From an uncultured Gammaproteobacteria bacterium (GTDB lineage: Bacteria > Patescibacteriota > Microgenomatia > CAZETR01 > Amesbacteraceae), in the NCBI GenBank assembly GCA_964543035.1, contig CAZIVL010000001.1:236159-300158 (forward strand): a stretch of 64,000 bases of DNA. The letters are read 5' to 3'. Below, in pieces: positions 6,154 to 41,848 of the stretch. The first letter of the stretch is position 1; each line of letters starts with the position of its first letter. The notes under the pieces were generated by a model. The model saw only the letters and a list, made by a program, of their open reading frames with translations. It made no database searches and was not told the DNA's origin. Both the position numbers and the translations under genes were made by a program.

Positions 6154-7642
6154 GAAGTCTATTTTTATTTGTTTCCTGATCGCAGCAGCAGCAATCTTTT
6201 TACGTCTATACAACGTGGGTTTATGGCCTGTTTTTGCTGATGAATCCATCTATGTACGCTGGTCCCAGGTCATGCGGGCCGAAAGCACCCTCAGATTTCT
6301 TCCACTTTCCGATGGTAAACAGCCTCTGTTTATGTGGGCGACCATCCCCTTTTTCAAAATTATTTCCGATCCACTAGTGGCCGCCCGTTTTTTGTCAGCT
6401 CTTACCGGAATTTTTACAACTGCAGGCATAGCCCTTCTTTCTTGGCTAACTCTAAAAAATCTTCGCATCACATTCTGGACAGCCGCGATCTGGGCGACTG
6501 TTCCCTACTCAGTTTTTTTTAGTCGCATGGCTTTGGTAGATAGCATGCTCTGTATGTTTATCGTATGGGGATTGAGCCTAAGCGTTCTATCTATTCAAAA
6601 ACAGCGCTTAGATATGGCCATGATAGCCGGATTCTTTTTTGGGTTCGCGTGGCTCACAAAATCTCCCGCCACCATTGCCCTGATGTTATTACCTTCAGTA
6701 CTAATTTTTATCCCTCACAAAAATCTAAAAACTATTCTGTATTCACTATTCTATATTCTTACCCCAATCTTAATTGCCTTTGGCATGTACAACATCTTGC
6801 GCTTAGGCCCTGAGTTTCATCAGATTGCTTTGCGAAATGCCGATTATGTCTTTACTCTGCCTGAGATTCTAAAACACCCCCAAGATCCATTACTCCCTCA
6901 CCTTAAAGATAGTGTCACGTTTTATTTATATCTCCTCACACCTTTTGGTGTTTTATTGTCTTTGTGGGGTATATTGGCTGGGGGCAAATCGCACGTCTGG
7001 ACCAAGCTATTTTTTGGGCTTTGGTTTTTGCTACCCATCATTGCACTATCAGCCGTAGCCCGTGCTTTTACCGCCCGATATATTCTCTTTACAGCGCCTT
7101 TTGCCGTGATTCTGGCTGCTCACGCCGTGGAGCATATAGGCCAGCACACCAAAAGACACTTACTCTCAGCCCTGACTGGAGCCTTGATCATAATTCCTTC
7201 TCTTTGGATTGATCATCTGATGCTGACAAATCCTGCGAATATGCCCATGGCCAGGATTGAGCGCTCCGGGTATCTAGAAGAGTGGACTGCCGGGTTCGGG
7301 CTCAAAGAAGTATCTGCTCGCATTCAAACAGCGGCCGAAAAACGTCCAGTTATAGTGGGGTCTGAGGGTTTTTTTGGCACTCCATTTGACGGACTCCAAA
7401 TGTATCTCAACGGTGTACCAAATGTTCGAGTAATTGGAGTCGGAGTCTGGATAGACTCAGTCCACGAAAAGTTAATCAACGCCTCGGTCGAAAACCAGAT
7501 ATTTTTAGTGGTCAACTCCAGTAGGTTCCATCACGAAAAACCAGAAGATTTGGGACTCAAACTTTTGGCCAGCTACCCAAAGGCTGTTCGCCCAGATGGT
7601 ACCCAGGAATATTTGTTGTTTTTTGAATACATACCAAAATAA
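6146..7642 (+). CDS. ArnT/PMT-like GT-C membrane glycosyltransferase (GT83/GT39-like)
   Basis: 498 aa polytopic protein. N-terminal ADESIYVRWSQVMRAE...GKQPLFMW resembles the ArnT DE-motif loop. It follows two Und-P-sugar synthase-like GT2 genes, an ArnC-ArnT-like arrangement. Confidence 0.7.
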   Translation: MLKKSIFICFLIAAAAIFLRLYNVGLWPVFADESIYVRWSQVMRAESTLRFLPLSDGKQPLFMWATIPFFKIISDPLVAARFLSALTGIFTTAGIALLSWLTLKNLRITFWTAAIWATVPYSVFFSRMALVDSMLCMFIVWGLSLSVLSIQKQRLDMAMIAGFFFGFAWLTKSPATIALMLLPSVLIFIPHKNLKTILYSLFYILTPILIAFGMYNILRLGPEFHQIALRNADYVFTLPEILKHPQDPLLPHLKDSVTFYLYLLTPFGVLLSLWGILAGGKSHVWTKLFFGLWFLLPIIALSAVARAFTARYILFTAPFAVILAAHAVEHIGQHTKRHLLSALTGALIIIPSLWIDHLMLTNPANMPMARIERSGYLEEWTAGFGLKEVSARIQTAAEKRPVIVGSEGFFGTPFDGLQMYLNGVPNVRVIGVGVWIDSVHEKLINASVENQIFLVVNSSRFHHEKPEDLGLKLLASYPKAVRPDGTQEYLLFFEYIPK

Positions 7643-7647
7643 TACAA

Positions 7648-7677
7648 TGTCATCCTGAGTGTAAGCGAAGGATCCAG
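7648..7677. repeat. degenerate, internally deleted copy of the palindromic element (tgtcatcctgag...aagcgaa..ggatcca) in the 5' leader of the 7683 CDS
   Basis: Shares the left terminal repeat tgtcatcc(t/c)ga, the aagcgaa core and ggatcc with the full copies at 8167..8225 and 40495..40564. It lacks the right terminal repeat. Confidence 0.35.
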
Positions 7678-7682
7678 TCTTT

Positions 7683-9395
7683 ATGAAAAAAGACCTTTTA
7701 ATTTTATTAATTCTTATCATCCCCAGCTTTGCAATTTTGTTGCAAAAGGGTTATTTCTCCATGCACGATGATCTTCAGTCCATGCGCCAGTACCAGCAAG
7801 ACTTGTGTTTTGCAGACGGCCAGATCCCCTGTCGTTGGGTGCCGGATATGGGTTATGGTTACGGCTACCCTTTGTTCAATTTTTACCCCCCACTTCCATA
7901 TCTCTTAGGACAACCGTTACGTCTTTTAGATATCTCTTACATCGACATTGTAAAGATTGTGGGAATTATGGGTTGGGTCAGTTCAGCAGTCTTCATGTAT
8001 CTTTTGGGGCGAGAGTTTTGGGGGCGAAGAGGGGGATTAGTCTCGGCAGTCTTTTATACATATGCTCCTTATCATTCGGTTGATTTTTATGTCCGGGGAG
8101 CCATGAATGAGTTTTGGGCCCTAGTCTTCTACCCCGCCATTTTTTATAGCACTTATCGCCTCATATTGTCATCCCGACCAAGCGAAAGCGCGTGGAGGGA
8201 TCCCTCGACCCGGCTCGGGATGTCAAGCGTGAACGTGAAGTGGATTGTATTCACGTCTCTCTCCGTCACAGGTCTCATGCTTTCTCACAACCCCATGCTC
8301 ATGATCTTCGCCCCGGTTCTCATCGGCTGGTGCCTGCTCTGGCTGATAAAGTTTAAAACCATTCAACCATTTGGCCATTTATCCATTGCGGCCATATGGT
8401 CCGCAGGCCTGGCCGCCTTCTTCACTCTTCCGGTCGTTTTTGAGCAGCAGTTTGTCAGCATCTGGACACTCACCTCAGGATACTTCAATTATCTGGCTCA
8501 CTTTTTGGACATCAAGCAGATTTTTATAAATATCAATTGGGGTTATGGATCATCTGAGCTGGGACCTACTGACAGCATGTCATTTGCCATTGGTTACTTG
8601 CACTGGATAGTGCCATTGGTAATCTTGATTTTTTCCCTTACAAAAAAACTTCGGCCATATATAGCCATAATTCTTTATTCCATATTCATAATTCTTGTTT
8701 CTCTATTTATGTCACATTCAAAATCGACGTTTTTATGGCAGCATCTAAGACCCCTGGAGTTGCTACAGTTCCCCTGGCGTTTTCTGACTTTGACCATTTT
8801 TGGAGCCTCGTTTGCTGCAGGAGCCATTGCTCCAGCCGTAAACAAAAAATTATTGCTCACAGCACTTATAACCTCAGTCATAATACTAAATGGTAATTAC
8901 TTTCGTCCCAGGGATTGGTATCCAGATATGACTGACCAAGCAAAGTTTTCCGGCAAGTCGTGGCAACTTCTTGTTACCTCTGGCATCTTTGATTACTTAC
9001 CCATCTGGGCACCATTCCCCCCGGCAGACCCAGCCGGCGCTGACTTAAACATAGTTCAAGGCGAAGGGGAGTATACCCGAGTTCTAAAATCATCCAATAA
9101 GCAGGTTTATAAAGTCGATGTTATTTTGGACTCAGCCACAATTGAACTGCAGACATATTACTTTCCCGGTTGGCGGGCATATGTAGATGGAGTAGAACAG
9201 CAGATTGACCCCACTCGCGACCCTCTTTTGGGGCGCATCCAGGTCGACTTGTCTTCTGGATCCCACCAAGTTGAGATCCGGTTTACAAACACCCCGATTC
9301 GTCTCCTTGCAAACTCCCTATCTGTCATCTCCTGGGCGGCAATGGTTGGTATAATAATTGTATGGATGTGGAGGAGATCTCTTCTGAAGAGTTAA
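7683..9395 (+). CDS. YfhO-like polytopic membrane protein (GT-C-like), short-form family B
   Basis: 570 aa with many TM helices. N-terminal periplasmic motif MHDD...CRWVPDMGYGYGYPLFNFY is shared with 35412..37031. C-terminal YFPGWRAYVDG...terminal TM signature is shared with the 767-aa YfhO-like protein at 20783..23086. Confidence 0.6.
   Translation: MKKDLLILLILIIPSFAILLQKGYFSMHDDLQSMRQYQQDLCFADGQIPCRWVPDMGYGYGYPLFNFYPPLPYLLGQPLRLLDISYIDIVKIVGIMGWVSSAVFMYLLGREFWGRRGGLVSAVFYTYAPYHSVDFYVRGAMNEFWALVFYPAIFYSTYRLILSSRPSESAWRDPSTRLGMSSVNVKWIVFTSLSVTGLMLSHNPMLMIFAPVLIGWCLLWLIKFKTIQPFGHLSIAAIWSAGLAAFFTLPVVFEQQFVSIWTLTSGYFNYLAHFLDIKQIFININWGYGSSELGPTDSMSFAIGYLHWIVPLVILIFSLTKKLRPYIAIILYSIFIILVSLFMSHSKSTFLWQHLRPLELLQFPWRFLTLTIFGASFAAGAIAPAVNKKLLLTALITSVIILNGNYFRPRDWYPDMTDQAKFSGKSWQLLVTSGIFDYLPIWAPFPPADPAGADLNIVQGEGEYTRVLKSSNKQVYKVDVILDSATIELQTYYFPGWRAYVDGVEQQIDPTRDPLLGRIQVDLSSGSHQVEIRFTNTPIRLLANSLSVISWAAMVGIIIVWMWRRSLLKS
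8167..8225. repeat. GC-rich palindromic mini-element, copy 1, inserted in-frame in the 7683 CDS (encodes ...SAWRDPSTRLGMS...)
   Basis: Terminal inverted repeats tgtcatcccga at 8167-8177 and tcgggatgtca at 8215-8225. Internal 12-nt perfect palindrome gagggatccctc at 8195-8206. About 60% GC in a roughly 40% GC gene. The host protein carries a roughly 22-aa insertion relative to its paralog 35412 at this site. Confidence 0.6.
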
Positions 9396-33838: not shown

Positions 33839-35415
33839 TTCTCATCTTGATTTTAGCAGCTGGGTTACGCACCGTCGGGCTTTCCTCGCATCCGCCTGGG
33901 TTTACACCAGACGAAGCTGGCCTAGGCTACAATGCCTATTCGCTACTTCTTACGGGTCGAGATGAATGGGGAACGGTCTGGTGGCAGCTCCCAGTTACAA
34001 ATCTTCAATCATTTGGAGATTATAAGTTGCCACTATATTCATTCTTGGCAGTTCCCACCATCAAGATATTTGGCCTCAATGAATTTGCCGTCCGGCTCCC
34101 AAATGCCATTTTGGGAACCTTATCGATTCTAGCCGTGTTCCTGTTGGGTTCTCGCATCGGAGGTTCTCGCATCGGACTTTTGTCTGCCACTCTTATGGCT
34201 ATTTCACCATGGTCAATCCAAATGTCCAGAGGAGCGTTCGAGGCGAATCTCGTCTCTCTTTTTGTTCCTCTAGCAATTTATGCATATTTGTCTTCTCGTT
34301 TTATTCAGTCAGCTATTTTTTTTGTTTTAGGAGTTTATACTTACCATTCCGCCAAGATCCTTACCCCTTTGATATTGGTTGCGCTGTTTGTTTACAAACC
34401 AACCAAAAAAATTGCCTTTTTTATGATACTGGGTGTGTTATTGATACCTGCTTTGATTTCTCAAATTGGCCTTGGGGGGAGCAGGTCGTCTGACCTTCTT
34501 ATTTTTAAACCCACCGACAATTGGGAGTATGTGTCTGCCCGCAGGTTTGCAGCCCGTAGTTTCGGAGTTCCGGATACAATCGCCAGGGTATTTTCAAACA
34601 AACTTACCTATGTCGCCACCACTTGGTTTGAGAACTATGCGTCATACCTATCTCCCCAATTTTTATTTACAAATGGTCCATCCGAGGGCACCTACGGCAT
34701 GCTGAGAGGAAGGGGAGTCCTCTATAGATTAGACCTGATCGCAATTTGTATATTCGTAGCTATTTTGATAAAAAATCCCACTCGAAAAAATATTTTATTG
34801 ACGACCCTCATTTTTTTAAGTTTCTTGCCTGCTTCTTTGACCAAAGGAGCGGGATTGGCCGCAAATCGGACAGTCATCGCTTTACCTTTCATTGCGATCG
34901 CGTTGGCGATTGGAGTAGGCAAGTTATCTATGGCACTAAAACCAGCCATTTATATCGTCATGGCTCTATACTGCTTGAGCTTGGTATATTTTGCTTACGA
35001 TTACGTCTATTTTGCAAAGACTAACATGGGCCAAGACATGCACATAGGCAAAAAAGAGTTGTTTGAAAGAACTATGCCCATAGCAGCCGGTTTCAACCAA
35101 ATAAAATTTAGTCGTACTCTTTCCAATCCCCATATTTTCTTTGCCTTTTTCACAGCGACTCCACCCACAGAATACCAAAAAGCAATCGCTCCCTATAAGA
35201 ATCTGAAAAATCATGGAGTAAATTTTGTAGATCAACTGTCCGACTACTCAATTGGCAAATATCATTTTGGTGACTCCCTTGTGGAAAAACCAGTTTCCCA
35301 GCCGACCTTGTTTGTAGGCAAGCCAGATCAATTTGATTCTATATCAGGAGAGTATTTTCATATTGATTATCCCAATGGCACCGAAGCTTACCGAGTTGTA
35401 GAAAAAAAGCCATGA
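33820..35415 (+). CDS. PMT_2/GT39-like GT-C membrane glycosyltransferase
   Basis: TPDEAGLGYNAYSLLLTGRDEWG...SFGDYKLPLY. Contains the 15-nt tandem duplication (GSRIGGSRIG). Confidence 0.8.
   Translation: MAKTILVLILILAAGLRTVGLSSHPPGFTPDEAGLGYNAYSLLLTGRDEWGTVWWQLPVTNLQSFGDYKLPLYSFLAVPTIKIFGLNEFAVRLPNAILGTLSILAVFLLGSRIGGSRIGLLSATLMAISPWSIQMSRGAFEANLVSLFVPLAIYAYLSSRFIQSAIFFVLGVYTYHSAKILTPLILVALFVYKPTKKIAFFMILGVLLIPALISQIGLGGSRSSDLLIFKPTDNWEYVSARRFAARSFGVPDTIARVFSNKLTYVATTWFENYASYLSPQFLFTNGPSEGTYGMLRGRGVLYRLDLIAICIFVAILIKNPTRKNILLTTLIFLSFLPASLTKGAGLAANRTVIALPFIAIALAIGVGKLSMALKPAIYIVMALYCLSLVYFAYDYVYFAKTNMGQDMHIGKKELFERTMPIAAGFNQIKFSRTLSNPHIFFAFFTATPPTEYQKAIAPYKNLKNHGVNFVDQLSDYSIGKYHFGDSLVEKPVSQPTLFVGKPDQFDSISGEYFHIDYPNGTEAYRVVEKKP
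34147..34176 (+). repeat. perfect 15-nt tandem duplication (ggttctcgcatcgga x2) inside the 33820 CDS
   Basis: Direct read of the sequence. In-frame, producing GSRIG-GSRIG in the first periplasmic loop or TM boundary. Confidence 0.8.
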
Positions 35416-37031
35416 AAAAATTTATAGTCCTTGTTTTACTTCTGTCCTTGCCCACGTTCGGCCTCATGCTCAGGCCTGGCATCTTCACAATGCATGATTT
35501 TCATCCATTCAGACTTTTTGAGTTTAATAAATGTATACAAGATGGGATTTTTCCTTGTAGGTGGGCACCCGATGCCGAAAATGGCTATGGAGAGCCCTTG
35601 TTCAATTTTTATGGTCAATTTCCGTACTGGGTAGGGGAGTTATTTGTGCTTTCGGGCTTTGGAATTCTCACTTCCATCAAGATTACATTTATTCTTACTC
35701 TTGTCTTATCCGGATTGGCCATGTATTGGGTGGCATCCAGATATTCAAATTACAAACTCGGCCTACTCGCCTCGCTTTTGTATGTATACGCGCCCTACCG
35801 AGCAGTAGACGTCTGGGTTCGAGGGGCTTTGGGAGAGGCTTTCGCATTTATTCTTTATCCTCTGATTTTTTATTTCTTGGACCAAGCCATCACTGTCCGG
35901 AAATCCAAATACTTTATTCTATTGGCTGTCTTCGTGGCCCTACTCATTATCACGCACAACCTTTCATTCGTGATGTTTGGTCTGGCATTGGGAGCCTGGA
36001 CAATATTCCGCATGATTTCTACTAGGAGTTGGATTGCTATCCCCAATCTATTCTTGTCCGGGATCCTGGCATTACTTTTATCCTCCTTCTATTTATTGCC
36101 AGTTGCCGTGGAGACGTCGCTTATCTCTTTGCAAAGCGCCACCACCGAAGGCTATTACAATTACCAGTTACATTACACGAGTCTTAAGCAGCTTTTTTGG
36201 TCCAGATTTTGGGGCTATGGGGCGTCAGTTTGGAGTGATGGCGACGGCATGAGTTTTTCTGCCGGCCAAATTCAGGCCACAGTATTAGGGGCAGCCCTAA
36301 TCGCCTCCATCATAAGAAGAAATCAGAAAGGTGTGATTCTTTCTCTTTTGGGTGTGCTTTGTTTGTTTATGACCCACGGCAAATCAGAGATTATCTGGAA
36401 ACTCTTGCCCCCTCTGACTTATATTCAGTTTCCCTGGCGTTTTCTGGCTCCCGCCGCCTTCTTCTCTACTCTGGCAGCAGCTACTTCTTTTCATGGTCTT
36501 CGCATCCCCAAAACAATCTTGGCTACAGTCATTATTCTTGTAATTATGACCAATGTAGATTTTTTCCGCCCCGATATCTGGCATGTAACAGACGATGTCA
36601 CATTTTTTTCCGGAAAAAATATGGAATATCAGATGCAAGCCCACAAAGACTTCTGGCCAAAGACGGCAGGTCCTCCTCCTCAATCTCTAGCTCCTACTGA
36701 GGCAGAATTTACTCAAGGATCAGGTATCGTGAAGCAGATCTCAAAAAGATCAGCTTCCATGGTATACGATATCAATATATTTAATGGGCCTTCTACGGTC
36801 GTTTTTCCCGTCGTGTTTTTTCCGGGATGGACTAGTCTTGTAGACGGTGTACAGCAACCAGTATATCCAGATCCCAGTACCGGACATATGGCGATTGATC
36901 TACCAGCAGGGGAGTGGACCGTCGAGCTAAAATTTATAGATACCTGGCCTAGGACGCTTGGCAATGTCATAAGTGCCGGAGCCTTGCTAGGCGTGATCAG
37001 CTTTGTAATTCTAAAGTATGAAAAAAAATAA
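35412..37031 (+). CDS. YfhO-like polytopic membrane protein (GT-C-like), short-form family B (paralog of 7683..9395)
   Basis: MHDFHP...CRWAPDAENGYGEPLFNFY. C-terminal FFPGWTSLVDG. ATGA overlap at the start. Confidence 0.6.
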   Translation: MKKFIVLVLLLSLPTFGLMLRPGIFTMHDFHPFRLFEFNKCIQDGIFPCRWAPDAENGYGEPLFNFYGQFPYWVGELFVLSGFGILTSIKITFILTLVLSGLAMYWVASRYSNYKLGLLASLLYVYAPYRAVDVWVRGALGEAFAFILYPLIFYFLDQAITVRKSKYFILLAVFVALLIITHNLSFVMFGLALGAWTIFRMISTRSWIAIPNLFLSGILALLLSSFYLLPVAVETSLISLQSATTEGYYNYQLHYTSLKQLFWSRFWGYGASVWSDGDGMSFSAGQIQATVLGAALIASIIRRNQKGVILSLLGVLCLFMTHGKSEIIWKLLPPLTYIQFPWRFLAPAAFFSTLAAATSFHGLRIPKTILATVIILVIMTNVDFFRPDIWHVTDDVTFFSGKNMEYQMQAHKDFWPKTAGPPPQSLAPTEAEFTQGSGIVKQISKRSASMVYDINIFNGPSTVVFPVVFFPGWTSLVDGVQQPVYPDPSTGHMAIDLPAGEWTVELKFIDTWPRTLGNVISAGALLGVISFVILKYEKK

Positions 37032-38574
37032 TCTCTTACTACTGACCATTTTGATAATCACGGGTGCCGTATTGCGCTTTGCTTGGCTGGATCAGTTTCC
37101 TCCTAGTCCAAACTGGGATGAAGTATCTTTAGGGTACAACGCATATTCACTCCTTCTCACTGGTCGTGATGAGTGGGGGATGACCCTGCCCACGATTTTT
37201 AGAGCATATGGAGACTTCAAGCTTCCGGGCTACGTGTATTTTCTGACTCCAGTCATCAAAGTACTTGGTCTTTCGACGCCTGGCATCAGATTCCTCTCCG
37301 CATTAGTCGGAGTATTAAGTATTTTTCTAGTCTATTTTCTGGGAATCAGGCTCACAAAAAATAAAATCGTCGCTGGTGTGGCCGCATTCTTTATGTGTAT
37401 TTCACCCTGGAGCTTCTTTGTCTCCCGGGTCGCTCTTGAGGCCAATTTGGGGCTTTTTTTCTTCCTGTTAGGAGTAAGCTTAATTGCTTCCCAGAGATTA
37501 TTTTTGTCAATTTTGCTTTTAGGTCTCTCTGCTTGGACATACAATTCTTTTCGCATATTTACCCCTCTATTCCTAGTTTCATACGTTTTTTTGATGCGAA
37601 AGCACCTAAAAATATCTCTAATTCACTATTTATTATTCATAATTCTCTTTGTCCCCATTTTCATCCAGCTTCTCTCACCCTCGGGCCAAGCCAGATTTTA
37701 TTGGACTACCATACTTGATTCGGGTGCAATTTCTCACATCAACGAGCTTCAGAGTCGCCCAGGGGGCCGGCTTGTTTACAACAAGTTGACCTACTTCGCC
37801 TTTGTATTCACTCAAAATTATTTCCGTCACTTCTCCCCCCAAGAGCTTTTTTTGACAGGACCTACAAATTATCAATTTAGCGTTCCTGAACACGGGCTAT
37901 TTTATTTAGTGACTCTCCCATTTTTTTATCTCGGCCTCACGCAGCTACCCAGGCGAAGAGTTTTTCTGTTATGGCTGATCTTGGGTCCTTTTGCCAGCAG
38001 TGCGACACGTGACTCGCCCCACGTTTTGAGGTCCATCCCACTTTTGCCAGTATATATCTATTCTATTTCTATAGGAATGTTTTTCTTGCATCAAAAATTA
38101 AAGAAGCTTAGGATTCTTCATATTGTCACGGCAGTAAGTCTAGCGCTTGCAGTTCTTTATCTTCGCATTTACACCACGACCTATCCGAGAGACTATTCTT
38201 GGGCCTGGCAATATGGGCATGTGCAATTGGCAGAGTACCTTCAAAAAAATTATGCTAACTACGATCAAATAATTATGACAAAAAGATATGGAGAGCCTCA
38301 CGAGTTTATTAACTTTTTTCTCAAAGTGCCTCCAACAGACTTTCAAAATTCGTCATCAAAAAAATGGGACTATCACGCCAGTTGGTATTGGGTAGATGAA
38401 TTTGCAAAATTTAGGTTTGTAAACGATTGGGAATTACTAGATCAATTAAAATCCCTTGATCCATCCAAAAGATATTTAGTCATTACAAGCCCTGACAATC
38501 CGGCAAGCGGGGATCCTCTACAAGAGATATTATTTTTAGACGGCAAACCGGCATTTTTCATAAATCGACTATGA
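37018..38574 (+). CDS. PMT_2/GT39-like GT-C membrane glycosyltransferase
   Basis: NWDEVSLGYNAYSLLLTGRDEWG...AYGDFKLPGY. Confidence 0.8.
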   Translation: MKKNNLLLLTILIITGAVLRFAWLDQFPPSPNWDEVSLGYNAYSLLLTGRDEWGMTLPTIFRAYGDFKLPGYVYFLTPVIKVLGLSTPGIRFLSALVGVLSIFLVYFLGIRLTKNKIVAGVAAFFMCISPWSFFVSRVALEANLGLFFFLLGVSLIASQRLFLSILLLGLSAWTYNSFRIFTPLFLVSYVFLMRKHLKISLIHYLLFIILFVPIFIQLLSPSGQARFYWTTILDSGAISHINELQSRPGGRLVYNKLTYFAFVFTQNYFRHFSPQELFLTGPTNYQFSVPEHGLFYLVTLPFFYLGLTQLPRRRVFLLWLILGPFASSATRDSPHVLRSIPLLPVYIYSISIGMFFLHQKLKKLRILHIVTAVSLALAVLYLRIYTTTYPRDYSWAWQYGHVQLAEYLQKNYANYDQIIMTKRYGEPHEFINFFLKVPPTDFQNSSSKKWDYHASWYWVDEFAKFRFVNDWELLDQLKSLDPSKRYLVITSPDNPASGDPLQEILFLDGKPAFFINRL

Positions 38575-40175
38575 CAAAAAAGTTGATCATTATTTTTCTG
38601 ATTTTCAGTTTGGGTCTTGGCTTACGCTTGTTCAAGCTCGATATTCGCCCAATAGGATTTACCTGGGATGAGGCAGCTTTAGGCTACAACGCCTATTCGT
38701 TATTTTTGACTGGCCGCGATGAGTATCGAGTGATTTTCCCCGTAGTCCTCAAATCGTTCGGAGATTACAAACCAGGACTCTATGCTTATCTGACTGCTCC
38801 ATCTGTGGCTTTTATTGGTTTGAATGAGCTTGCCACTCGCTTGCCTTCAGCCGTATTAGGATCACTTTTAGTACTCACAGTTTTTCTACTTGCTGGTCTA
38901 TTATTTTCGTATCGAGTTGGCATGTTTGCGGCCATTCTACTGGCCATCAATCCCTGGGCCATTCACTTTTCCCGGGGTGCCTGGGAAGCAAATCTGAGTC
39001 TGTTTCTCACCACCCTCGCCGTCACCCTATATCTAAAATCATACAAAATTCAAAATACGAGATACATGATGCTGTCCTCACTACTCTTCGGCCTGACTTT
39101 TTGGAGTTACCAAGGGGCAAAGCTTATGACTCCTCTCGTCATACTCAGTCTTTTGGTCTTATTTAGACCAAAAAAGATAGTTGTTGTCCCCTGGATTATT
39201 TTTCTAGCAGTCATTTCTCCTGTCATTATTGGTCTCAAAGATCAATCGGGTAGATTACAGGTTTTGAGTTTGTTTAATTACACCAGGTCGCATGAATCGA
39301 TATCTAGGATACAGGATCAAGAGGGTAGTACTAGCCCAGCCTGGGTATTTTCTTTGTTTCACTCCGAGTTGCTCGATCAGACGAGAGGAATTGTGGAGAG
39401 GTATCTAAATCATTTCTCTCCCAGATATCTGTTTTTTGAAGGGGACTGGTCAAACTTAAGGCACACAACCCCTTACTATGGATATTTTCATATCCCAGAG
39501 ATTATCTTTATTTTGGTGGGACTAGTTTATTTGCTAAAAAAGCCCTCTCCTCAGTCGCTCTTAATATTCTTTTGGTTGGTGTTCTCGCCACTGGCTGCCA
39601 GTATCTCCCGGGACATTGTATCGGGTGTTCGCAGTCTGCCTATGGTCATCCCGCTTACTATTGTAGGGGCAATTGGTTTGGCAAAAATTTCTTCAAAAAA
39701 AATTATTTTCTTAAGTCTTTCTCTATCGATGCTATTTTTTGTAGTGTATTACTTAGATTTATATTATGTCCACGCCCCCCATTATTCCGCTTCTGCCTGG
39801 CTGTATCCGTACAAAAGAGCCATCCAGCTGCTAAACAACAATATCAATAGCTATGACCGCGTAATTTTTACCAACACCTTGGGTCAACCTTATATTTACA
39901 TACTTTTTTACAACCAGGTCCACCCTAAGCTTTATCAGCCCTGGGCGAAGCTTCAAGAGAGTAAATCTCAAGACGTGGGCGAAGTAGTGGCCTGGGACAA
40001 ATATTTGTTTCGAAAAGTCGACTGGCCAGCCGAAAGGGGCAGTCACTCAACCATCTTCGTGGGCAATCAGTATGAACTACCAGAACAAGATATGAATCCA
40101 GCGCATCTGGTGCGCTTAGGGGAGATAGAATATCCAAACGGTTTACATGCATTACGGATTGTTGGACTAAAATGA
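38571..40175 (+). CDS. PMT_2/GT39-like GT-C membrane glycosyltransferase
   Basis: TWDEAALGYNAYSLFLTGRDEY...SFGDYKPGLY. ATGA overlap. Confidence 0.8.
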   Translation: MTKKLIIIFLIFSLGLGLRLFKLDIRPIGFTWDEAALGYNAYSLFLTGRDEYRVIFPVVLKSFGDYKPGLYAYLTAPSVAFIGLNELATRLPSAVLGSLLVLTVFLLAGLLFSYRVGMFAAILLAINPWAIHFSRGAWEANLSLFLTTLAVTLYLKSYKIQNTRYMMLSSLLFGLTFWSYQGAKLMTPLVILSLLVLFRPKKIVVVPWIIFLAVISPVIIGLKDQSGRLQVLSLFNYTRSHESISRIQDQEGSTSPAWVFSLFHSELLDQTRGIVERYLNHFSPRYLFFEGDWSNLRHTTPYYGYFHIPEIIFILVGLVYLLKKPSPQSLLIFFWLVFSPLAASISRDIVSGVRSLPMVIPLTIVGAIGLAKISSKKIIFLSLSLSMLFFVVYYLDLYYVHAPHYSASAWLYPYKRAIQLLNNNINSYDRVIFTNTLGQPYIYILFYNQVHPKLYQPWAKLQESKSQDVGEVVAWDKYLFRKVDWPAERGSHSTIFVGNQYELPEQDMNPAHLVRLGEIEYPNGLHALRIVGLK

Positions 40176-41848
40176 AAAAAATACTGCTTATCTTTATTCT
40201 GATCTTGGCTTCAGTTTTGCGTTTGTATGATCTGACTTCTTATCCATCAGGGCTAAATGCCGACGAAGCAGCCTTGGGTTACAACGCTTACTCCATCATG
40301 CTGACCGGGCGCGATGAACATGGGCATTTTCTGCCTATCAACCTTGAATCATTTGGCGATTTCAAGCCCGCCCTTTACTCGTATCTTCTTATCCCGTTTA
40401 TCAAAGTAATGGGTCTGACTGAGCTTGCAGTCCGTCTCCCCTCAGCCATTTTTGGGATACTGGCCGTTTTGTTTATATATTTACTTACCAATCTTGTCAT
40501 CCCGACCGATCCTGAGCCTGCCGAAGGAGAGCGGAGGGATCCCTCGACTCCGCTCGGGATGACAGCTGGGCATGTAGCTGCATTACTTTTGGCAATTTCT
40601 CCTTGGCATCTCCACTTTAGCAGGGGAGCATGGGAGGTCAATGTCGCCACAACCCTTTTATTAATCGGCGTGTGGTTGTTTCTCCGTTGGGCCAGACTCA
40701 AAAATAATTGGTCCATATTTTTTTCGATCTTTTGTTTTTCATTGTCTATGTACACCTATCAATCAACCCGAATTATAGCCCCGCTTATTGGTCTAGGACT
40801 GGCAGCGATTTATTTTAAGGATCTGGCCAGCCGCCCAAAACTAATAATACTTAATTTATTATTTACTTTGATTCTATTATCCCCTCTGGCCTACAACGTA
40901 CTCACCACCGATTCAGCATCTAGATTTTCAGGTGTAGGTTTTACAGCAGACGAGGGTCCCCTCAACCGTATCAAAGAATTTCGTGGCCAACACTCAAATC
41001 CTGCAAGCATAATGGCCCGAATCCTTCACAATCGTGTAGTTATATATTCAATCCAGTTTGCAAAAAATTACCTCGACCATTTCGGAGGAAACTTCTTGTT
41101 TGTAAACGGGGACATCATCCAGAGAAATCGTATTCCAGAGACCGGCCTTCTCTATCTCACCGACTTTATATTTGTAGTTCTCGGACTAATATACTTGATA
41201 CAAAACCTGTCTGCCGGCAGGCAGGGTACTAAATACAAAATACAAGTTATTTTATTGTGGCTTCTCATAGCTCCCATTGCTGCTGCTCTCACCTTTCAGA
41301 CACCCCATGCACTGAGATCCCAAAACATGATAATTCCCATCACGATCCTTACAGCCGCGGGGATCTATTGGATTATAAAAAGATGGCAGACAATCGGGGG
41401 AGTAATTTTAGTTATTTTTTACTTATTCCAGGTGACTAGATATATTCATCAGTACTATGTCCATTATCCAAAAGAGTATCCAGCAGCCTGGGAATTTGGA
41501 TTCAAAGAGGTGGTAGCATATGCCGAGTCTAAAAAAGAAGAGTATGACCGCGTGCTTGTTACCGACAAATATGACCAGCCGTACATTTTGTTTCTGTTTT
41601 ATTCAAAATATCCACCCCACTTGTTTCAAGGACAGCACCAGCTGACAGTCAGAGACAAGTTTAACTTTTCGACTGTCAGAGACTACGACAAATACCATTT
41701 TGAGTCGACTCCCTGGGACAAAGTGCGAGATAATCACTCCAGTCTGATTATAGCCGCTCCAGAGGATATACCAGCAGAAGGGGTAAATGTCGTAAATACG
41801 ATATATTTCCCAAATGGGGAGGAAGCGTTTAAGATAGTCTCAAACTAG
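40172..41848 (+). CDS. PMT_2/GT39-like GT-C membrane glycosyltransferase carrying an in-frame palindromic element insertion
   Basis: NADEAALGYNAYSIMLTGRDEHG...SFGDFKPALY. ATGA overlap. A roughly 20-aa insertion (IPTDPEPAEGERRDPSTPLGMTAGH) relative to its five paralogs coincides with repeat copy 2. Confidence 0.8.
   Translation: MKKILLIFILILASVLRLYDLTSYPSGLNADEAALGYNAYSIMLTGRDEHGHFLPINLESFGDFKPALYSYLLIPFIKVMGLTELAVRLPSAIFGILAVLFIYLLTNLVIPTDPEPAEGERRDPSTPLGMTAGHVAALLLAISPWHLHFSRGAWEVNVATTLLLIGVWLFLRWARLKNNWSIFFSIFCFSLSMYTYQSTRIIAPLIGLGLAAIYFKDLASRPKLIILNLLFTLILLSPLAYNVLTTDSASRFSGVGFTADEGPLNRIKEFRGQHSNPASIMARILHNRVVIYSIQFAKNYLDHFGGNFLFVNGDIIQRNRIPETGLLYLTDFIFVVLGLIYLIQNLSAGRQGTKYKIQVILLWLLIAPIAAALTFQTPHALRSQNMIIPITILTAAGIYWIIKRWQTIGGVILVIFYLFQVTRYIHQYYVHYPKEYPAAWEFGFKEVVAYAESKKEEYDRVLVTDKYDQPYILFLFYSKYPPHLFQGQHQLTVRDKFNFSTVRDYDKYHFESTPWDKVRDNHSSLIIAAPEDIPAEGVNVVNTIYFPNGEEAFKIVSN
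40495..40564. repeat. GC-rich palindromic mini-element, copy 2, in-frame inside the 40172 CDS
   Basis: Perfect 11-bp terminal inverted repeats tgtcatcccga (40495-40505) and tcgggatgaca (40554-40564). Internal gagcggag..ctccgctc stem and gagggatccctc palindrome. It shares about 30 nt (ggagggatccctcgac.c.gctcgggatg) with copy 1. Confidence 0.6.

What the first reader, a model, noticed from the sequence alone, without database searches (positions are those of the whole stretch)
40495..40564. Copy 2 of the palindromic element inside a PMT_2 glycosyltransferase loop
The 11-bp terminal inverted repeats are perfect here (tgtcatcccga / tcgggatgaca). An additional 8-bp stem gagcggag/ctccgctc flanks the ggatccctcga loop. 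The host gene 40172..41848 has a roughly 20-aa insertion (IPTDPEPAEGERRDPSTPLGMTAGH) that is absent from all five PMT_2 paralogs in this window at the aligned position. The paralogs therefore act as internal controls showing that the segment is an insertion.
Basis: seen in the sequence. Interest (0 to 1): 0.65.

Follow-up and report, generated by a model that had tools for sequence, protein, structure and literature searches.

The report
Palindromic repeat inserted in glycosyltransferase loop
A 70-base GC-rich palindromic repeat of a family found in many bacterial phyla sits in frame inside a membrane glycosyltransferase gene of a tiny uncultured (Amesbacteria) bacterium and adds about 18-23 disordered residues to one loop; this is a known kind of event, but related genes have been hit again and again at that same loop.

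Summary
Window 40495-40564 is a 70-nt element with perfect 11-nt inverted termini (TGTCATCCCGA/TCGGGATGACA) and an inner stem GAGCGGAG/CTCCGCTC. It lies in frame in gene 40172..41848. All five in-window paralogs and 89 of 120 orthologs lack an insert there.

It is an inverted pair ("dimer") of a TGTC-tagged palindromic unit. It resembles the CGTC-tagged REP superfamily of Di Nocera et al. 2013, which includes Rickettsia RPE-4/6 and Neisseria dRS3, and it is read in the same "VIP...GMT" frame as published intragenic dimers. It does not meet that family's stem and loop criteria, so I file it as a variant.

A second dimer (8167-8225) lies in frame in a different membrane-protein gene. A single unit (7649-7683) is intergenic. 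A sister genome lacks the copy-2 dimer and the single unit, and holds a different palindrome at the copy-1 site.

The same termini occur in Alphaproteobacteria, Gemmatimonadota, Acidobacteriota, Chloroflexota, Bacteroidota and CPR. An AlphaFold2 model places the insert in a low-confidence coil between two transmembrane helices. Deleting it in silico restores the Pfam PMT_2 match.

The unexpected part is a hot spot. In three GT-C families, 12-26% of orthologs carry some palindromic insert at one loop, from at least three unrelated element types.

Verdict: a real feature and a variant of a known kind; moderate interest.

The parts
40495..40564 (+). Copy 2: a 70-nt inverted pair (heterodimer) of TGTC-tagged palindromic units, translated in frame as VIPTDPEPAEGERRDPSTPLGMT
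   Evidence: It aligns to a 50-nt core family with an extra hairpin module. The covariance model scores it 71.8 bits on the + strand and 41.5 on the - strand (this copy was in the seed alignment).
40495..40505 (+). Left terminus TGTCATCCCGA: TGTC tag plus the start of the ATCCC stem
   Evidence: Perfect complement of 40554-40564. These columns are invariant or nearly so in 18 family members.
40554..40564 (+). Right terminus TCGGGATGACA
40510..40528 (+). Variable extra hairpin module (TCCT-GAGCCTGCCGA-AGGA), sitting at the family's expansion site after GACC
   Evidence: In alignment A5, eight members including both window copies carry 9-22 extra bases here. Their sequences are unrelated. Several (L217, L189, L167, both window copies) were seen by eye to be self-complementary.
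40529..40555 (+). Inner stem GAGCGGAG / CTCCGCTC around the loop GGATCCCTCGA. It contains the central palindrome GAGGGATCCCTC (40534-40545), where the two units overlap tail to tail.
   Evidence: for coordinates; six of its pairs (G37-C59 to G42-C54) were counted in 18 relatives, and 89% of cells pair, many as G-U.
40172..41848 (+). Host gene: GT-C fold (PMT_2 / GT39-like) membrane glycosyltransferase, 558 aa, intact
   Evidence: Orthologs are 55-72% identical over the full length. The protein keeps every invariant residue of 62 orthologs, including D31 and E32. AlphaFold2 gives pLDDT 86.5 and pTM 0.89. The best structural matches are PglB, AglB, ArnT, ALG9 and Pmt4.
8167..8225 (+). Copy 1: a 59-nt dimer of the same family, in frame as SSRPSESAWRDPSTRLGMSS
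   Evidence: 58.5 bits; this copy was in the seed alignment. It is absent from paralog 35412..37031. 105 of 120 orthologs have no insert at that loop.
7683..9395 (+). Host gene of copy 1: a PTPS_related/YfhO-like polytopic membrane protein, 570 aa
   Evidence: Its paralog matches PF10131 and PF09586. The insert-bearing protein matches no Pfam family.
7649..7683 (+). Single unit (monomer) GTCATCCTGAGTGTAAGCGAAGGATCCAGTCTTTA, intergenic, 6 nt after the stop at 7640-7642. Its last base is the A of the ATG at 7683.
   Evidence: These 35 nt are exactly what the sister genome lacks: L248 reads ...AATACAAT|TGAAAAAAG and starts the gene with TTG. The unit has the stem ATCCT/AGGAT and the tail CCA.

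Best explanation
**What it is.** The element is a non-autonomous palindromic repeat of the REP/RPE kind. It consists of two TGTC-tagged stem-loop units in inverted orientation whose tails overlap in GGGATCCC.
- Each unit reads TGTC-ATCCC-GA-[loop]-GA-GGGAT.
- That gives 5 Watson-Crick pairs followed by a tandem G.A.

**How it got there and why it persists.**
- The dimer entered the DNA that encodes the short loop between the third and fourth transmembrane helices of a GT-C glycosyltransferase. This happened after the split from the nearest sampled relative.
- The 50-nt core has no stop codon in 4 of 6 frames, and its translation is hydrophilic and rich in Pro and Gly.
- An insertion that keeps the frame, in a loop that tolerates extra length, therefore leaves the enzyme working and is not purged.
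- On this reading the encoded peptide is a passenger, not a domain.

**Why the same loop recurs.** The recurrence across orthologs and paralogs is best explained by protein-level tolerance acting as a filter on frequent palindrome insertions.

**Shown:** the insertion, family membership at the sequence level, recent gain or loss between sister genomes, the loop location and the intact host.

**Inferred:** mobility in trans by an unknown enzyme, neutrality of the peptide, and the extracytoplasmic side of the loop.
For: **Insertion status.**
- Paralogs lack the segment. 89 of 120 orthologs have no insert there. The closest ortholog has an empty site.

**Family.**
Hits came from Reyranella and other Alphaproteobacteria, Gemmatimonadota, Acidobacteriota, Chloroflexota, Bacteroidota and Saccharibacteria.
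- The consensus is TGTCATCCCGAGCGnAGCGAGGGATC...GATCCCTCGCTnCGCTCGGGATGACA.
- Low-GC metagenome contigs carry a 50-nt core, plus long-loop variants that align base for base with both window copies.

**Published description.**
- PMC3733652 describes CGTC/TGTC-tagged REPs: stems that begin with AT, a CCA tail, predominant dimers, intragenic copies and no associated transposase.
- Its Additional file 3 lists intragenic dimers translated as VIPAKAGIS...IPAFAGMT and VVPAKAGTS...IPASAGMT. That is the same frame as VIPTDPEP...PLGMT here.

**Recent turnover.**
- The sister genome (L248, L004) lacks the single unit and copy 2, and holds a different palindrome at the copy-1 site.
- L211 has the 50-nt element at the same codon junction as copy 1 but in the opposite orientation.

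**Tolerance.**
- The insert is coil with pLDDT about 65 between two confident helices.
- The host keeps all invariant residues. The Pfam match is restored when the insert is deleted.
- The core is open in 4 of 6 frames.

**Hot spot in three families.**
- 31/120, 15/120 and 14/120 orthologs carry an insert at one loop each.
- One of these families is a paralog only 33% identical to the host. This points to the protein position rather than a shared DNA target.
Against: - No transposase or other mobilising gene lies in the 64-kb window, and none is known for this superfamily. Mobility is inferred from distribution only.
- Only two dimers and one single unit occur in 64 kb. The genome-wide copy number is unknown.
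- No target-site duplication is visible. Neither 70 nt nor 59 nt is a multiple of 3, so each insertion must have come with a small loss of native sequence.
- The unit has 5 Watson-Crick pairs plus G.A mismatches, not the 8-9 bp stem and 4-5 nt loop of the four described CGTC families.
- The many G-U-compatible pairs and the extra hairpins seen in several members could reflect selection on a structure, which a pure passenger model does not predict.
- Covariation support for the helices is weak, because most pairs never vary.
Confidence: 0.75

Rival explanations
1. The hairpin is kept for a cis-acting function, as RNA or single-stranded DNA inside this long co-directional glycosylation operon. 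It might stabilise or process the mRNA, pause ribosomes just after the third transmembrane helix emerges, or act as a gyrase or recombination site. The peptide would then be the by-product.
For: - The RNA fold is strong: -32 kcal/mol with z = -2.7.
- Inner-stem pairs in relatives are often G-U, which pair only in RNA.
- The variable module differs in sequence between members, and several were seen by eye to be self-complementary.
- PMC3733652 argues that many REPs are transcribed and act after transcription.
- The intergenic single unit sits 6 nt after a stop codon, the typical REP position.
Against: - The sister genome and 89 of 120 orthologs do without it at this site.
- Unrelated palindromes occupy the same loop elsewhere.
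- No run of T follows the hairpin, so it is not an intrinsic terminator.
- No Rfam family matches.
- Both orientations occur within genes.
Confidence: 0.1
2. The loop is a deliberately variable, exposed surface segment. Palindromic inserts would be retained by positive (diversifying) selection because they change an extracytoplasmic loop of cell-envelope glycosylation enzymes, for example to evade phage or to interact with the host cell of these episymbionts.
For: - Three GT-C families show 12-26% of orthologs with inserts at one loop, from at least three element types.
- Parsimony on a neighbour-joining tree needs at least 22 gain or loss events.
- Native loop length also varies.
- Topology inference puts the loop on the same side as the catalytic DE motif (inference).
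Against: - There is no evidence that the loop is accessible from outside. It is short and lies next to the membrane.
- The inserts are translations of generic genome-wide repeats, not loop-specific sequences.
- The pattern is equally expected from neutral tolerance.
- No dN/dS or population data are available.
Confidence: 0.08
3. The palindromes are not mobile themselves. They would be footprints or attachment-type targets of another recombinase, in the way that IS110-type elements and Neisseria filamentous prophages use REP/dRS3 repeats. Alternatively they arise in place by hairpin-templated repair at a fragile site.
For: - REPs are known insertion targets (PMC3733652 Background; the IS110/dRS3 link is from my own knowledge).
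- The same junction is occupied by different elements, and by one element in both orientations.
- There is no target duplication.
Against: - Near-identical 50-nt cores occur at unrelated loci and in unrelated genomes, which origin in place cannot produce.
- No integrase, IS or prophage lies near either copy.
- Insert-free orthologs show no pre-existing palindrome at the site.
Confidence: 0.05
4. The segment is native loop sequence, a chance palindrome or an assembly artefact.
For: None beyond the fact that loops vary in length among GT-C enzymes.
Against: - The sequence is identical in two separate run assemblies.
- GC is 0.64 in the element against 0.42 in the rest of the gene.
- The 11-mer is enriched, with 0 of 100 shuffles matching the count.
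- Homologous copies exist in another gene and in hundreds of other genomes.
Confidence: 0.02

Closest known systems
CGTC-tagged REP superfamily (Di Nocera, De Gregorio & Rocco 2013, BMC Genomics 14:522; PMC3733652), which includes Rickettsia conorii RPE-4/RPE-6 and Neisseria dRS3
   Same: - An unpaired terminal tetranucleotide; TGTC is a listed variant of CGTC, and relatives L069 and L245 carry CGTC.
- The stem begins with A-T then T-A immediately after the tag.
- The single unit has the CCA tail.
- Units occur mainly as inverted dimers that can fold separately or as one long hairpin.
- Copies lie both downstream of genes and inside them.
- Intragenic dimers are read as VIP...GMT.
- No transposase lies nearby.
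- The distribution spans several phyla, centred on Alphaproteobacteria.
   Different: - The unit stem has 5 Watson-Crick pairs plus a tandem G.A and 1-2 further pairs, not 8-9 perfect pairs.
- The loop is 3-8 nt in one unit and 8-31 nt in the other, which has an expandable hairpin module. The described loops are 4-5 nt.
- The two units overlap by sharing GGGATCCC rather than being separated by a spacer.
- The host is a CPR (Amesbacteria) genome. I did not check which phyla the paper lists.
- I could not see the paper's Figure 2 consensus sequences, so assignment to CGTC-1 to CGTC-4 is untested.
Rickettsia palindromic elements inserted in frame in protein genes (RPE-1 and others; Ogata et al. 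2000 and 2002, as cited in PMC3733652)
   Same: - A palindromic repeat is inserted in frame in genes for evidently functional proteins.
- It adds a hydrophilic segment at a site compatible with the fold.
- The same element family is also found between genes.
   Different: - RPE-1 is longer (about 100-150 nt, from my own knowledge) and restricted to Rickettsia.
- No sequence comparison with RPE consensus sequences was possible here.
- As far as I could find, repeated use of one loop across orthologs and paralogs by unrelated elements has not been described for RPEs.
GTAG-tagged REPs and their RAYT (IS200/IS605-like tyrosine transposase) genes
   Same: - Short GC-rich palindromic units, often paired.
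- Occasionally intragenic.
- Thought to be mobilised in trans as single-stranded hairpins, without target duplication.
   Different: - There is no GTAG tag.
- There is no RAYT gene in the window.
- CGTC-type repeats have no known transposase.
Bacterial MITEs (Correia/NEMIS, RUP, ERIC, Nezha)
   Same: - Terminal inverted repeats, small size and no coding capacity.
- They can sit in or next to genes.
   Different: - MITEs derive from an IS with matching ends and make target-site duplications.
- No duplication is seen at the one cleanly resolved junction, and no parent IS is known.

Membership tests
CGTC-tagged REP superfamily (PMC3733652) | Unpaired terminal tetranucleotide CGTC (TGTC or CCTC accepted variants) | tested here: met
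   TGTC lies at both outer ends of copy 2 and at the left end of copy 1 (right end GACA changed to GTCA). Close relatives L069 and L245 carry CGTC. The paper states that the tag is changed to TGTC in many repeats.
CGTC-tagged REP superfamily (PMC3733652) | Stem starts with complementary A and T in positions 1 and 2 directly after the tag | tested here: met
   ATCCC...GGGAT in both dimers and ATCCT...AGGAT in the single unit; the C-to-T change is matched by a G-to-A change.
CGTC-tagged REP superfamily (PMC3733652) | Stem of 8-9 base pairs | tested here: not met
   There are only 5 Watson-Crick pairs, then G.A/A.G, then 1-2 pairs (sequence inspection). Nine stacked positions result only if the tandem G.A is counted.
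CGTC-tagged REP superfamily (PMC3733652) | Loop of 4-5 nt | tested here: not met
   The apical loop is GNA (3 nt) in the Alphaproteobacteria-type unit, about 8 nt in the window's right unit, and 8-31 nt in the left unit.
CGTC-tagged REP superfamily (PMC3733652) | 3-nt unpaired tail, consensus CCA | tested here: met
   The single unit reads AGGAT-CCA-G, and so does the sister-genome unit at L004 955-985. In the dimers the tails read CCC and overlap the partner unit.
CGTC-tagged REP superfamily (PMC3733652) | Units mostly paired in inverted orientation; intragenic copies occur | tested here: met
   There are two intragenic dimers and one extragenic single unit in the window. 12 of 27 low-GC metagenome hits lie inside ORFs of 150 aa or more.
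CGTC-tagged REP superfamily (PMC3733652) | Repeated many times within a genome | tested here: inconclusive
   Three sites were found in 64 kb. Some other genomes show several copies per 8 kb (L018).
Rickettsia palindromic elements (RPE) | In-frame insertion in an otherwise intact protein gene, at a structurally permissive site | tested here: met
Rickettsia palindromic elements (RPE) | Sequence similarity to an RPE-1 to RPE-8 consensus | not tested
   No RPE consensus DNA was available. Only the encoded end motifs (VIP......GMT) match published RPE-4/CGTC dimers.
GTAG REP / RAYT system | GTAG tag and an associated RAYT transposase gene | tested here: not met
   There is no GTAG at either end. 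No transposase domain was found in the roughly 45 window ORFs scanned; a few ORFs near the 3' end were not scanned.
MITE (IS-derived) | Target-site duplication flanking terminal inverted repeats | tested here: not met
   The filled and empty sites of the single unit differ by exactly 35 nt with no duplicated bases. The flanks of the dimers share no repeat.
GT-C / PMT_2 glycosyltransferase (host protein) | Pfam PMT_2 above the gathering score, a DE motif in the first external loop, and the GT-C fold | tested here: met
   PMT_2 scores 29.1 bits (cut-off 26.1) only after the insert is removed in silico, and 18.5 bits with it. D31 and E32 are invariant. Foldseek finds PglB, AglB, ArnT, ALG9 and Pmt4 with E values from 8e-8 to 1e-5.

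The most novel reading that the evidence does not exclude
The loop between transmembrane helices 3 and 4 of Amesbacteria GT-C enzymes would be a genuinely targeted site, not merely a tolerant one. Several unrelated hairpin elements would be directed there by a shared structure- or replication-dependent mechanism, or kept there by diversifying selection on an exposed loop. The nearly invariant TGTCATCCCGA terminus shared from Alphaproteobacteria to CPR would mark a still unidentified, widely conserved enzyme that moves CGTC-type repeats.
Probability: 0.12. Interest if true: 0.7.

Novelty: new variant of a known kind. Interest (0 to 1): 0.4.

Why it matters
**What is already known.** In-frame palindromic repeats in protein genes have been known since the Rickettsia RPEs, and the CGTC repeat superfamily was catalogued in 2013. 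The basic event is therefore not new.

**What this locus adds.**
- A variant unit architecture: a short stem, a tandem G.A, and an expandable hairpin module.
- Its presence in small CPR genomes.
- A clean filled-versus-empty comparison between sister genomes.
- A natural experiment. Three related membrane-enzyme families show insertions at one loop in 12-26% of orthologs, and one of them requires at least 22 independent gain or loss events.

**Why that is useful.**
- It bears on the open question of how CGTC-type repeats move, since no transposase is known.
- It helps map which positions in GT-C enzymes accept insertions.
- It has a practical annotation consequence: the insert pushes the host below the Pfam threshold, so such genes end up annotated as hypothetical.

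Tried and rejected
- **Rfam:** no family at gathering score in the window. With the permissive threshold, only meaningless weak matches (mir-1910, lncRNA fragments) around both copies.
- **Literature search by sequence string:** nothing relevant. A search for CPR together with REP returned one unrelated preprint.
- **More copies in the window:** the covariance model with filters off finds only the two dimers. Relatives' loci L003, L004, L125-L127 and L248 have none.
- **Phage vector:** only 6 matches among 2.9 million viral contigs, so phages are not an obvious carrier.
- **Transposase in the window:** the ORFs scanned are glycosyltransferases, a flippase-like protein, methyltransferases, asparagine synthase and similar. 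A few ORFs near the 3' end were not scanned.
- **Target-site duplication or conserved target motif:** none was seen at the single unit's junction. The dimer junctions are too diverged from the empty site to resolve. The TTAC motif upstream is not adjacent to any junction.
- **Intron or intein reading:** rejected. 70 nt is too small, the frame is preserved without stops, and neither class has such a form.
- **Intrinsic terminator:** rejected, because no run of T follows the hairpin.
- **GTAG REP status of the PSP/GEG-type inserts in orthologs:** considered, because one arm in L003 contains GTAGGAGAGGGG. The structure is instead a roughly 25-nt inverted repeat, so I left it unclassified.
- **Covariation test of the long hairpin:** uninformative, because most pairs never vary.
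Full report
**1. The observation**

Window 40495-40564 reads TGTCATCCCGACCGATCCTGAGCCTGCCGAAGGAGAGCGGAGGGATCCCTCGACTCCGCTCGGGATGACA.
- The two 11-nt ends are perfect reverse complements.
- GAGCGGAG (40529-40536) and CTCCGCTC (40548-40555) flank GGATCCCTCGA. This inner stem shares two bases with the right end, so the two helices compete for them.
- The 11-mer with up to one mismatch occurs 6 times in the window against 0.75 expected. No shuffle out of 100 reaches 6.
- As single-stranded DNA or RNA the element folds better than shuffles, with z from -2.7 to -3.1 and an RNA energy of -32 kcal/mol.
- Its GC content is 0.64, against 0.42 for the rest of the gene.
- The same sequence is present in two separately assembled sequencing runs.

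**2. It is an insertion**

The element lies in frame in ORF 40172..41848 and encodes VIPTDPEPAEGERRDPSTPLGMT.
- The five closest paralogs in the window all show an 18-column gap at that point.
- Among 120 orthologs, all from Candidatus Amesbacteria or the Microgenomates group, 89 have no insert there.
- The closest ortholog (P0002, 72% identity) reads YLLTKELITDNCALITA at the site.
- The net gain is 18 codons, so about 16 nt of native loop were lost or overwritten.

The host gene is intact.
- It aligns end to end with its orthologs and keeps every invariant residue of a 62-sequence alignment, including D31 and E32.
- An AlphaFold2 model (pLDDT 86.5, pTM 0.89) shows residues 110-131 as coil with pLDDT about 65, between helices 84-109 and 132-141 with pLDDT 96 or more.
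- The fold is GT-C; the best matches are PglB, AglB, ArnT, ALG9 and Pmt4.
- With the insert, Pfam PMT_2 scores 18.5 bits and the match stops at residue 106. With the 23 codons removed it scores 29.1 bits over residues 65-217, above the 26.1 cut-off.

By topology reasoning the loop faces outward. The N-terminus is taken to be inside, the DE loop outside, helix 68-80 runs inward and helix 84-109 runs outward. This is inference, not a measurement.

**3. Other copies in the window**

- A 59-nt copy at 8167-8225 is in frame (SSRPSESAWRDPSTRLGMSS) in an unrelated polytopic membrane-protein gene, 7683..9395.
- The paralog of that gene lacks it, and 105 of its 120 orthologs have no insert at that loop.
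- A single unit, GTCATCCTGAGTGTAAGCGAAGGATCCAGTCTTTA (7649-7683), lies between the stop at 7640-7642 and the ATG at 7683.
- A covariance model built from 18 family members, which included the two window copies, finds no further dimers in the window.

**4. What family it belongs to**

*Genome scan.* A scan of one genome per species for TGTCATCCCGA-N20-50-TCGGGATG hit the 120-locus limit.
- Almost all hits share the interior TGTCATCCCGAGCGnAGCGAGGGATC...GATCCCTCGCTnCGCTCGGGATGACA.
- They come from Reyranella and other Alphaproteobacteria, Gemmatimonadota, Acidobacteriota, Chloroflexota, Bacteroidota, Saccharibacteria and others.

- In low-GC contigs it shows a 50-nt core, TGTCATCCCGACCGmAGTGGAGGGATCCCTCGrCTnCGCTCGGGATGACA.
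- It also shows longer variants.
- In alignment A5 both window copies match this core base for base. They differ only by extra bases at one expansion site after GACC.
- Eight of the 18 aligned members carry 9-22 extra bases there, of unrelated sequence; several were seen by eye to be self-complementary.

*Unit structure.* Each unit reads tag-ATCCC-GA-loop-GA-GGGAT. In the short form the two units overlap tail to tail in GGGATCCC.

*Published description.* The literature search led to Di Nocera et al. 2013 (PMC3733652).
- The paper defines CGTC-tagged REPs. The tag is often TGTC, the stem begins with AT, the tail is CCA, dimers predominate, intragenic copies are documented and no transposase is associated.
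- It assigns Rickettsia RPE-4/6 and Neisseria dRS3 to this superfamily.
- Its table of intragenic repeats lists dimers translated as VIPAKAGIS...IPAFAGMT, VVPAKAGTS...IPASAGMT and VIPWLDHGIQ...LLQTCGMT. These use the same frame and have the same end motifs as copy 2.

*Where it fits and where it does not.*
- The tag, the AT start, the tail, the pairing into dimers and the intragenic habit are all met.
- The 8-9 bp stem and the 4-5 nt loop are not met.
- I therefore file the element as a variant within, or next to, that superfamily, not as a member of CGTC-1 to CGTC-4.

**5. Evidence for recent turnover**

Contigs L248 and L004 come from one sample and carry the syntenic genes at about 72-80% protein identity.
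- There the single-unit site is empty. The two genomes differ by exactly the 35 nt, there is no duplicated base, and the gene starts with TTG instead of ATG.
- The copy-2 site is empty.
- The copy-1 site holds a different palindrome, CCCCTCTCCTAACGAAGGAGAGGGG.
- That genome has its own TGTC unit just upstream of the copy-2 ortholog, with the ATG inside the unit's loop.
- A more distant ortholog of the copy-1 host (L211) carries a pristine 50-nt element at the same codon junction (YRLIL|SSR...) but in the opposite orientation. This means either a second insertion or an inversion in place.

**6. The hot spot**

*Copy-2 host family.*
- 31 of 120 orthologs have an insert of 7 aa or more at this one loop.
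- Twenty are of a PSPxLGEGxxRGEV type. Their DNA is a different palindrome, for example TACCTCTCCCC...CCCCTCTCCTA / TAGGAGAGGGG...GGGGTGAGGTA in L003.
- Seven are of an AT-rich LEFENxLKIGNxKLKIE type, three are of other kinds, and the TGTC type occurs only in the window.
- On a neighbour-joining tree, parsimony needs at least 22 presence/absence changes. The tree is rough.

*The other two families.*
- In the copy-1 host family, 15 of 120 orthologs have inserts at its loop.
- The neighbouring paralog 38571..40175 is only 33% identical to the copy-2 host and has no insert in the window. In its family, 14 of 120 orthologs have inserts at the homologous loop.

*Reading.* The position is shared between families that are only 33% identical at protein level. 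A protein-level tolerance filter is therefore the simplest explanation. A DNA- or replication-level cause is not excluded.

**7. Mechanism**

*Best reading (0.75).* This is a non-autonomous REP/RPE-like hairpin element, moved in trans by an unknown enzyme. It survives inside genes only where the frame is kept and the extra segment falls in a permissive loop.
- The 50-nt core is open in 4 of 6 frames.
- Its translations are polar and rich in Pro and Gly, which suits a loop and not a membrane helix.

*Rivals.*
- A cis-acting RNA or DNA hairpin function. This is supported by G-U-compatible pairs and by the extra hairpins in some members. It is weakened by the element's absence from most relatives.
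- Diversifying selection on an exposed loop.
- The repeats being targets or footprints rather than mobile elements.
- Chance or artefact, which the results refute.

**8. Verdict**

The kind of event is already known, so the surprise is moderate. The CPR setting, the variant architecture, the filled/empty pairs and the recurrent loop make it a useful case rather than a new category.

Noticed in passing
window 7649-7683 (with L248 7985-8015): The intergenic single unit ends in ...CTTTA, and its last base supplies the A of the ATG of gene 7683..9395. The sister genome, which lacks the unit, starts the same gene with TTG five bases after the upstream stop.
   Followed up: yes
L004 955-985: In the sister genome a TGTC unit (TGTC-ATCCT-AAATAAAATGA-AGGAT-CCA) lies at the 5' end of the ortholog of the copy-2 host. 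The called ATG is inside its loop, giving an N-terminal extension (MKDPEK...).
   Followed up: partly
window 41206-41225: A second small GC-rich near-palindrome, CCTGTCTGCCGGCAGGCAGG (18 of 20 self-complementary), lies in the same host gene and encodes SAGRQG. Among the 120 orthologs, only the window protein and P0034 have extra residues at this position.
   Followed up: partly
L003 5250-5340; L126; L127; L248 8500-8540: Orthologs carry a different palindrome family at the same loops (arms CCCCTCTCC / GGAGAGGGG, translated PSPxLGEGxxRGEV). It is the commonest insert type in all three GT-C families, yet the window has no copy.
   Followed up: partly
L125 10300-10400 (P0012) and P0036, P0038, P0054, P0062, P0255, P0272: An AT-rich insert type (LNFENYLRFGIQNLRIE, LEFENCLKIGNCKLKIE) occupies the same loop. 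Its DNA looks like imperfect direct repeats of AATTTGArnnTTGAA rather than a palindrome.
   Followed up: no
orthologs of 40172..41848, near residue 403 of the window protein: There is a minor second insertion site: 14 of 120 orthologs have 7-21 extra residues there, some repeat-like (LKLKIKN, SLPSLKLREGMGVSY).
   Followed up: no
window 1-64000: Almost the whole window is one glycosylation island, mostly on the + strand. It holds at least 11 GT-C/PMT_2-like membrane glycosyltransferases and two PTPS_related/YfhO-like proteins. It also holds about 20 GT2/GT4 enzymes, a Polysacc_synt flippase-like protein, asparagine synthase, methyltransferases, a 2OG-Fe(II) oxygenase and an AftD-like GT-C.
   Followed up: partly
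window 7683-9395 and 40172-41848: Both insert-bearing proteins fall below all Pfam thresholds, while their insert-free paralogs or orthologs match. Short repeat inserts therefore turn recognisable enzymes into 'hypothetical proteins' in automatic annotation.
   Followed up: yes
L210 (metagenome contig, GC 0.49): Several right-half units occur in tandem, each separated by GACAAAAAG. This clustered arrangement is unlike the isolated copies seen elsewhere.
   Followed up: no
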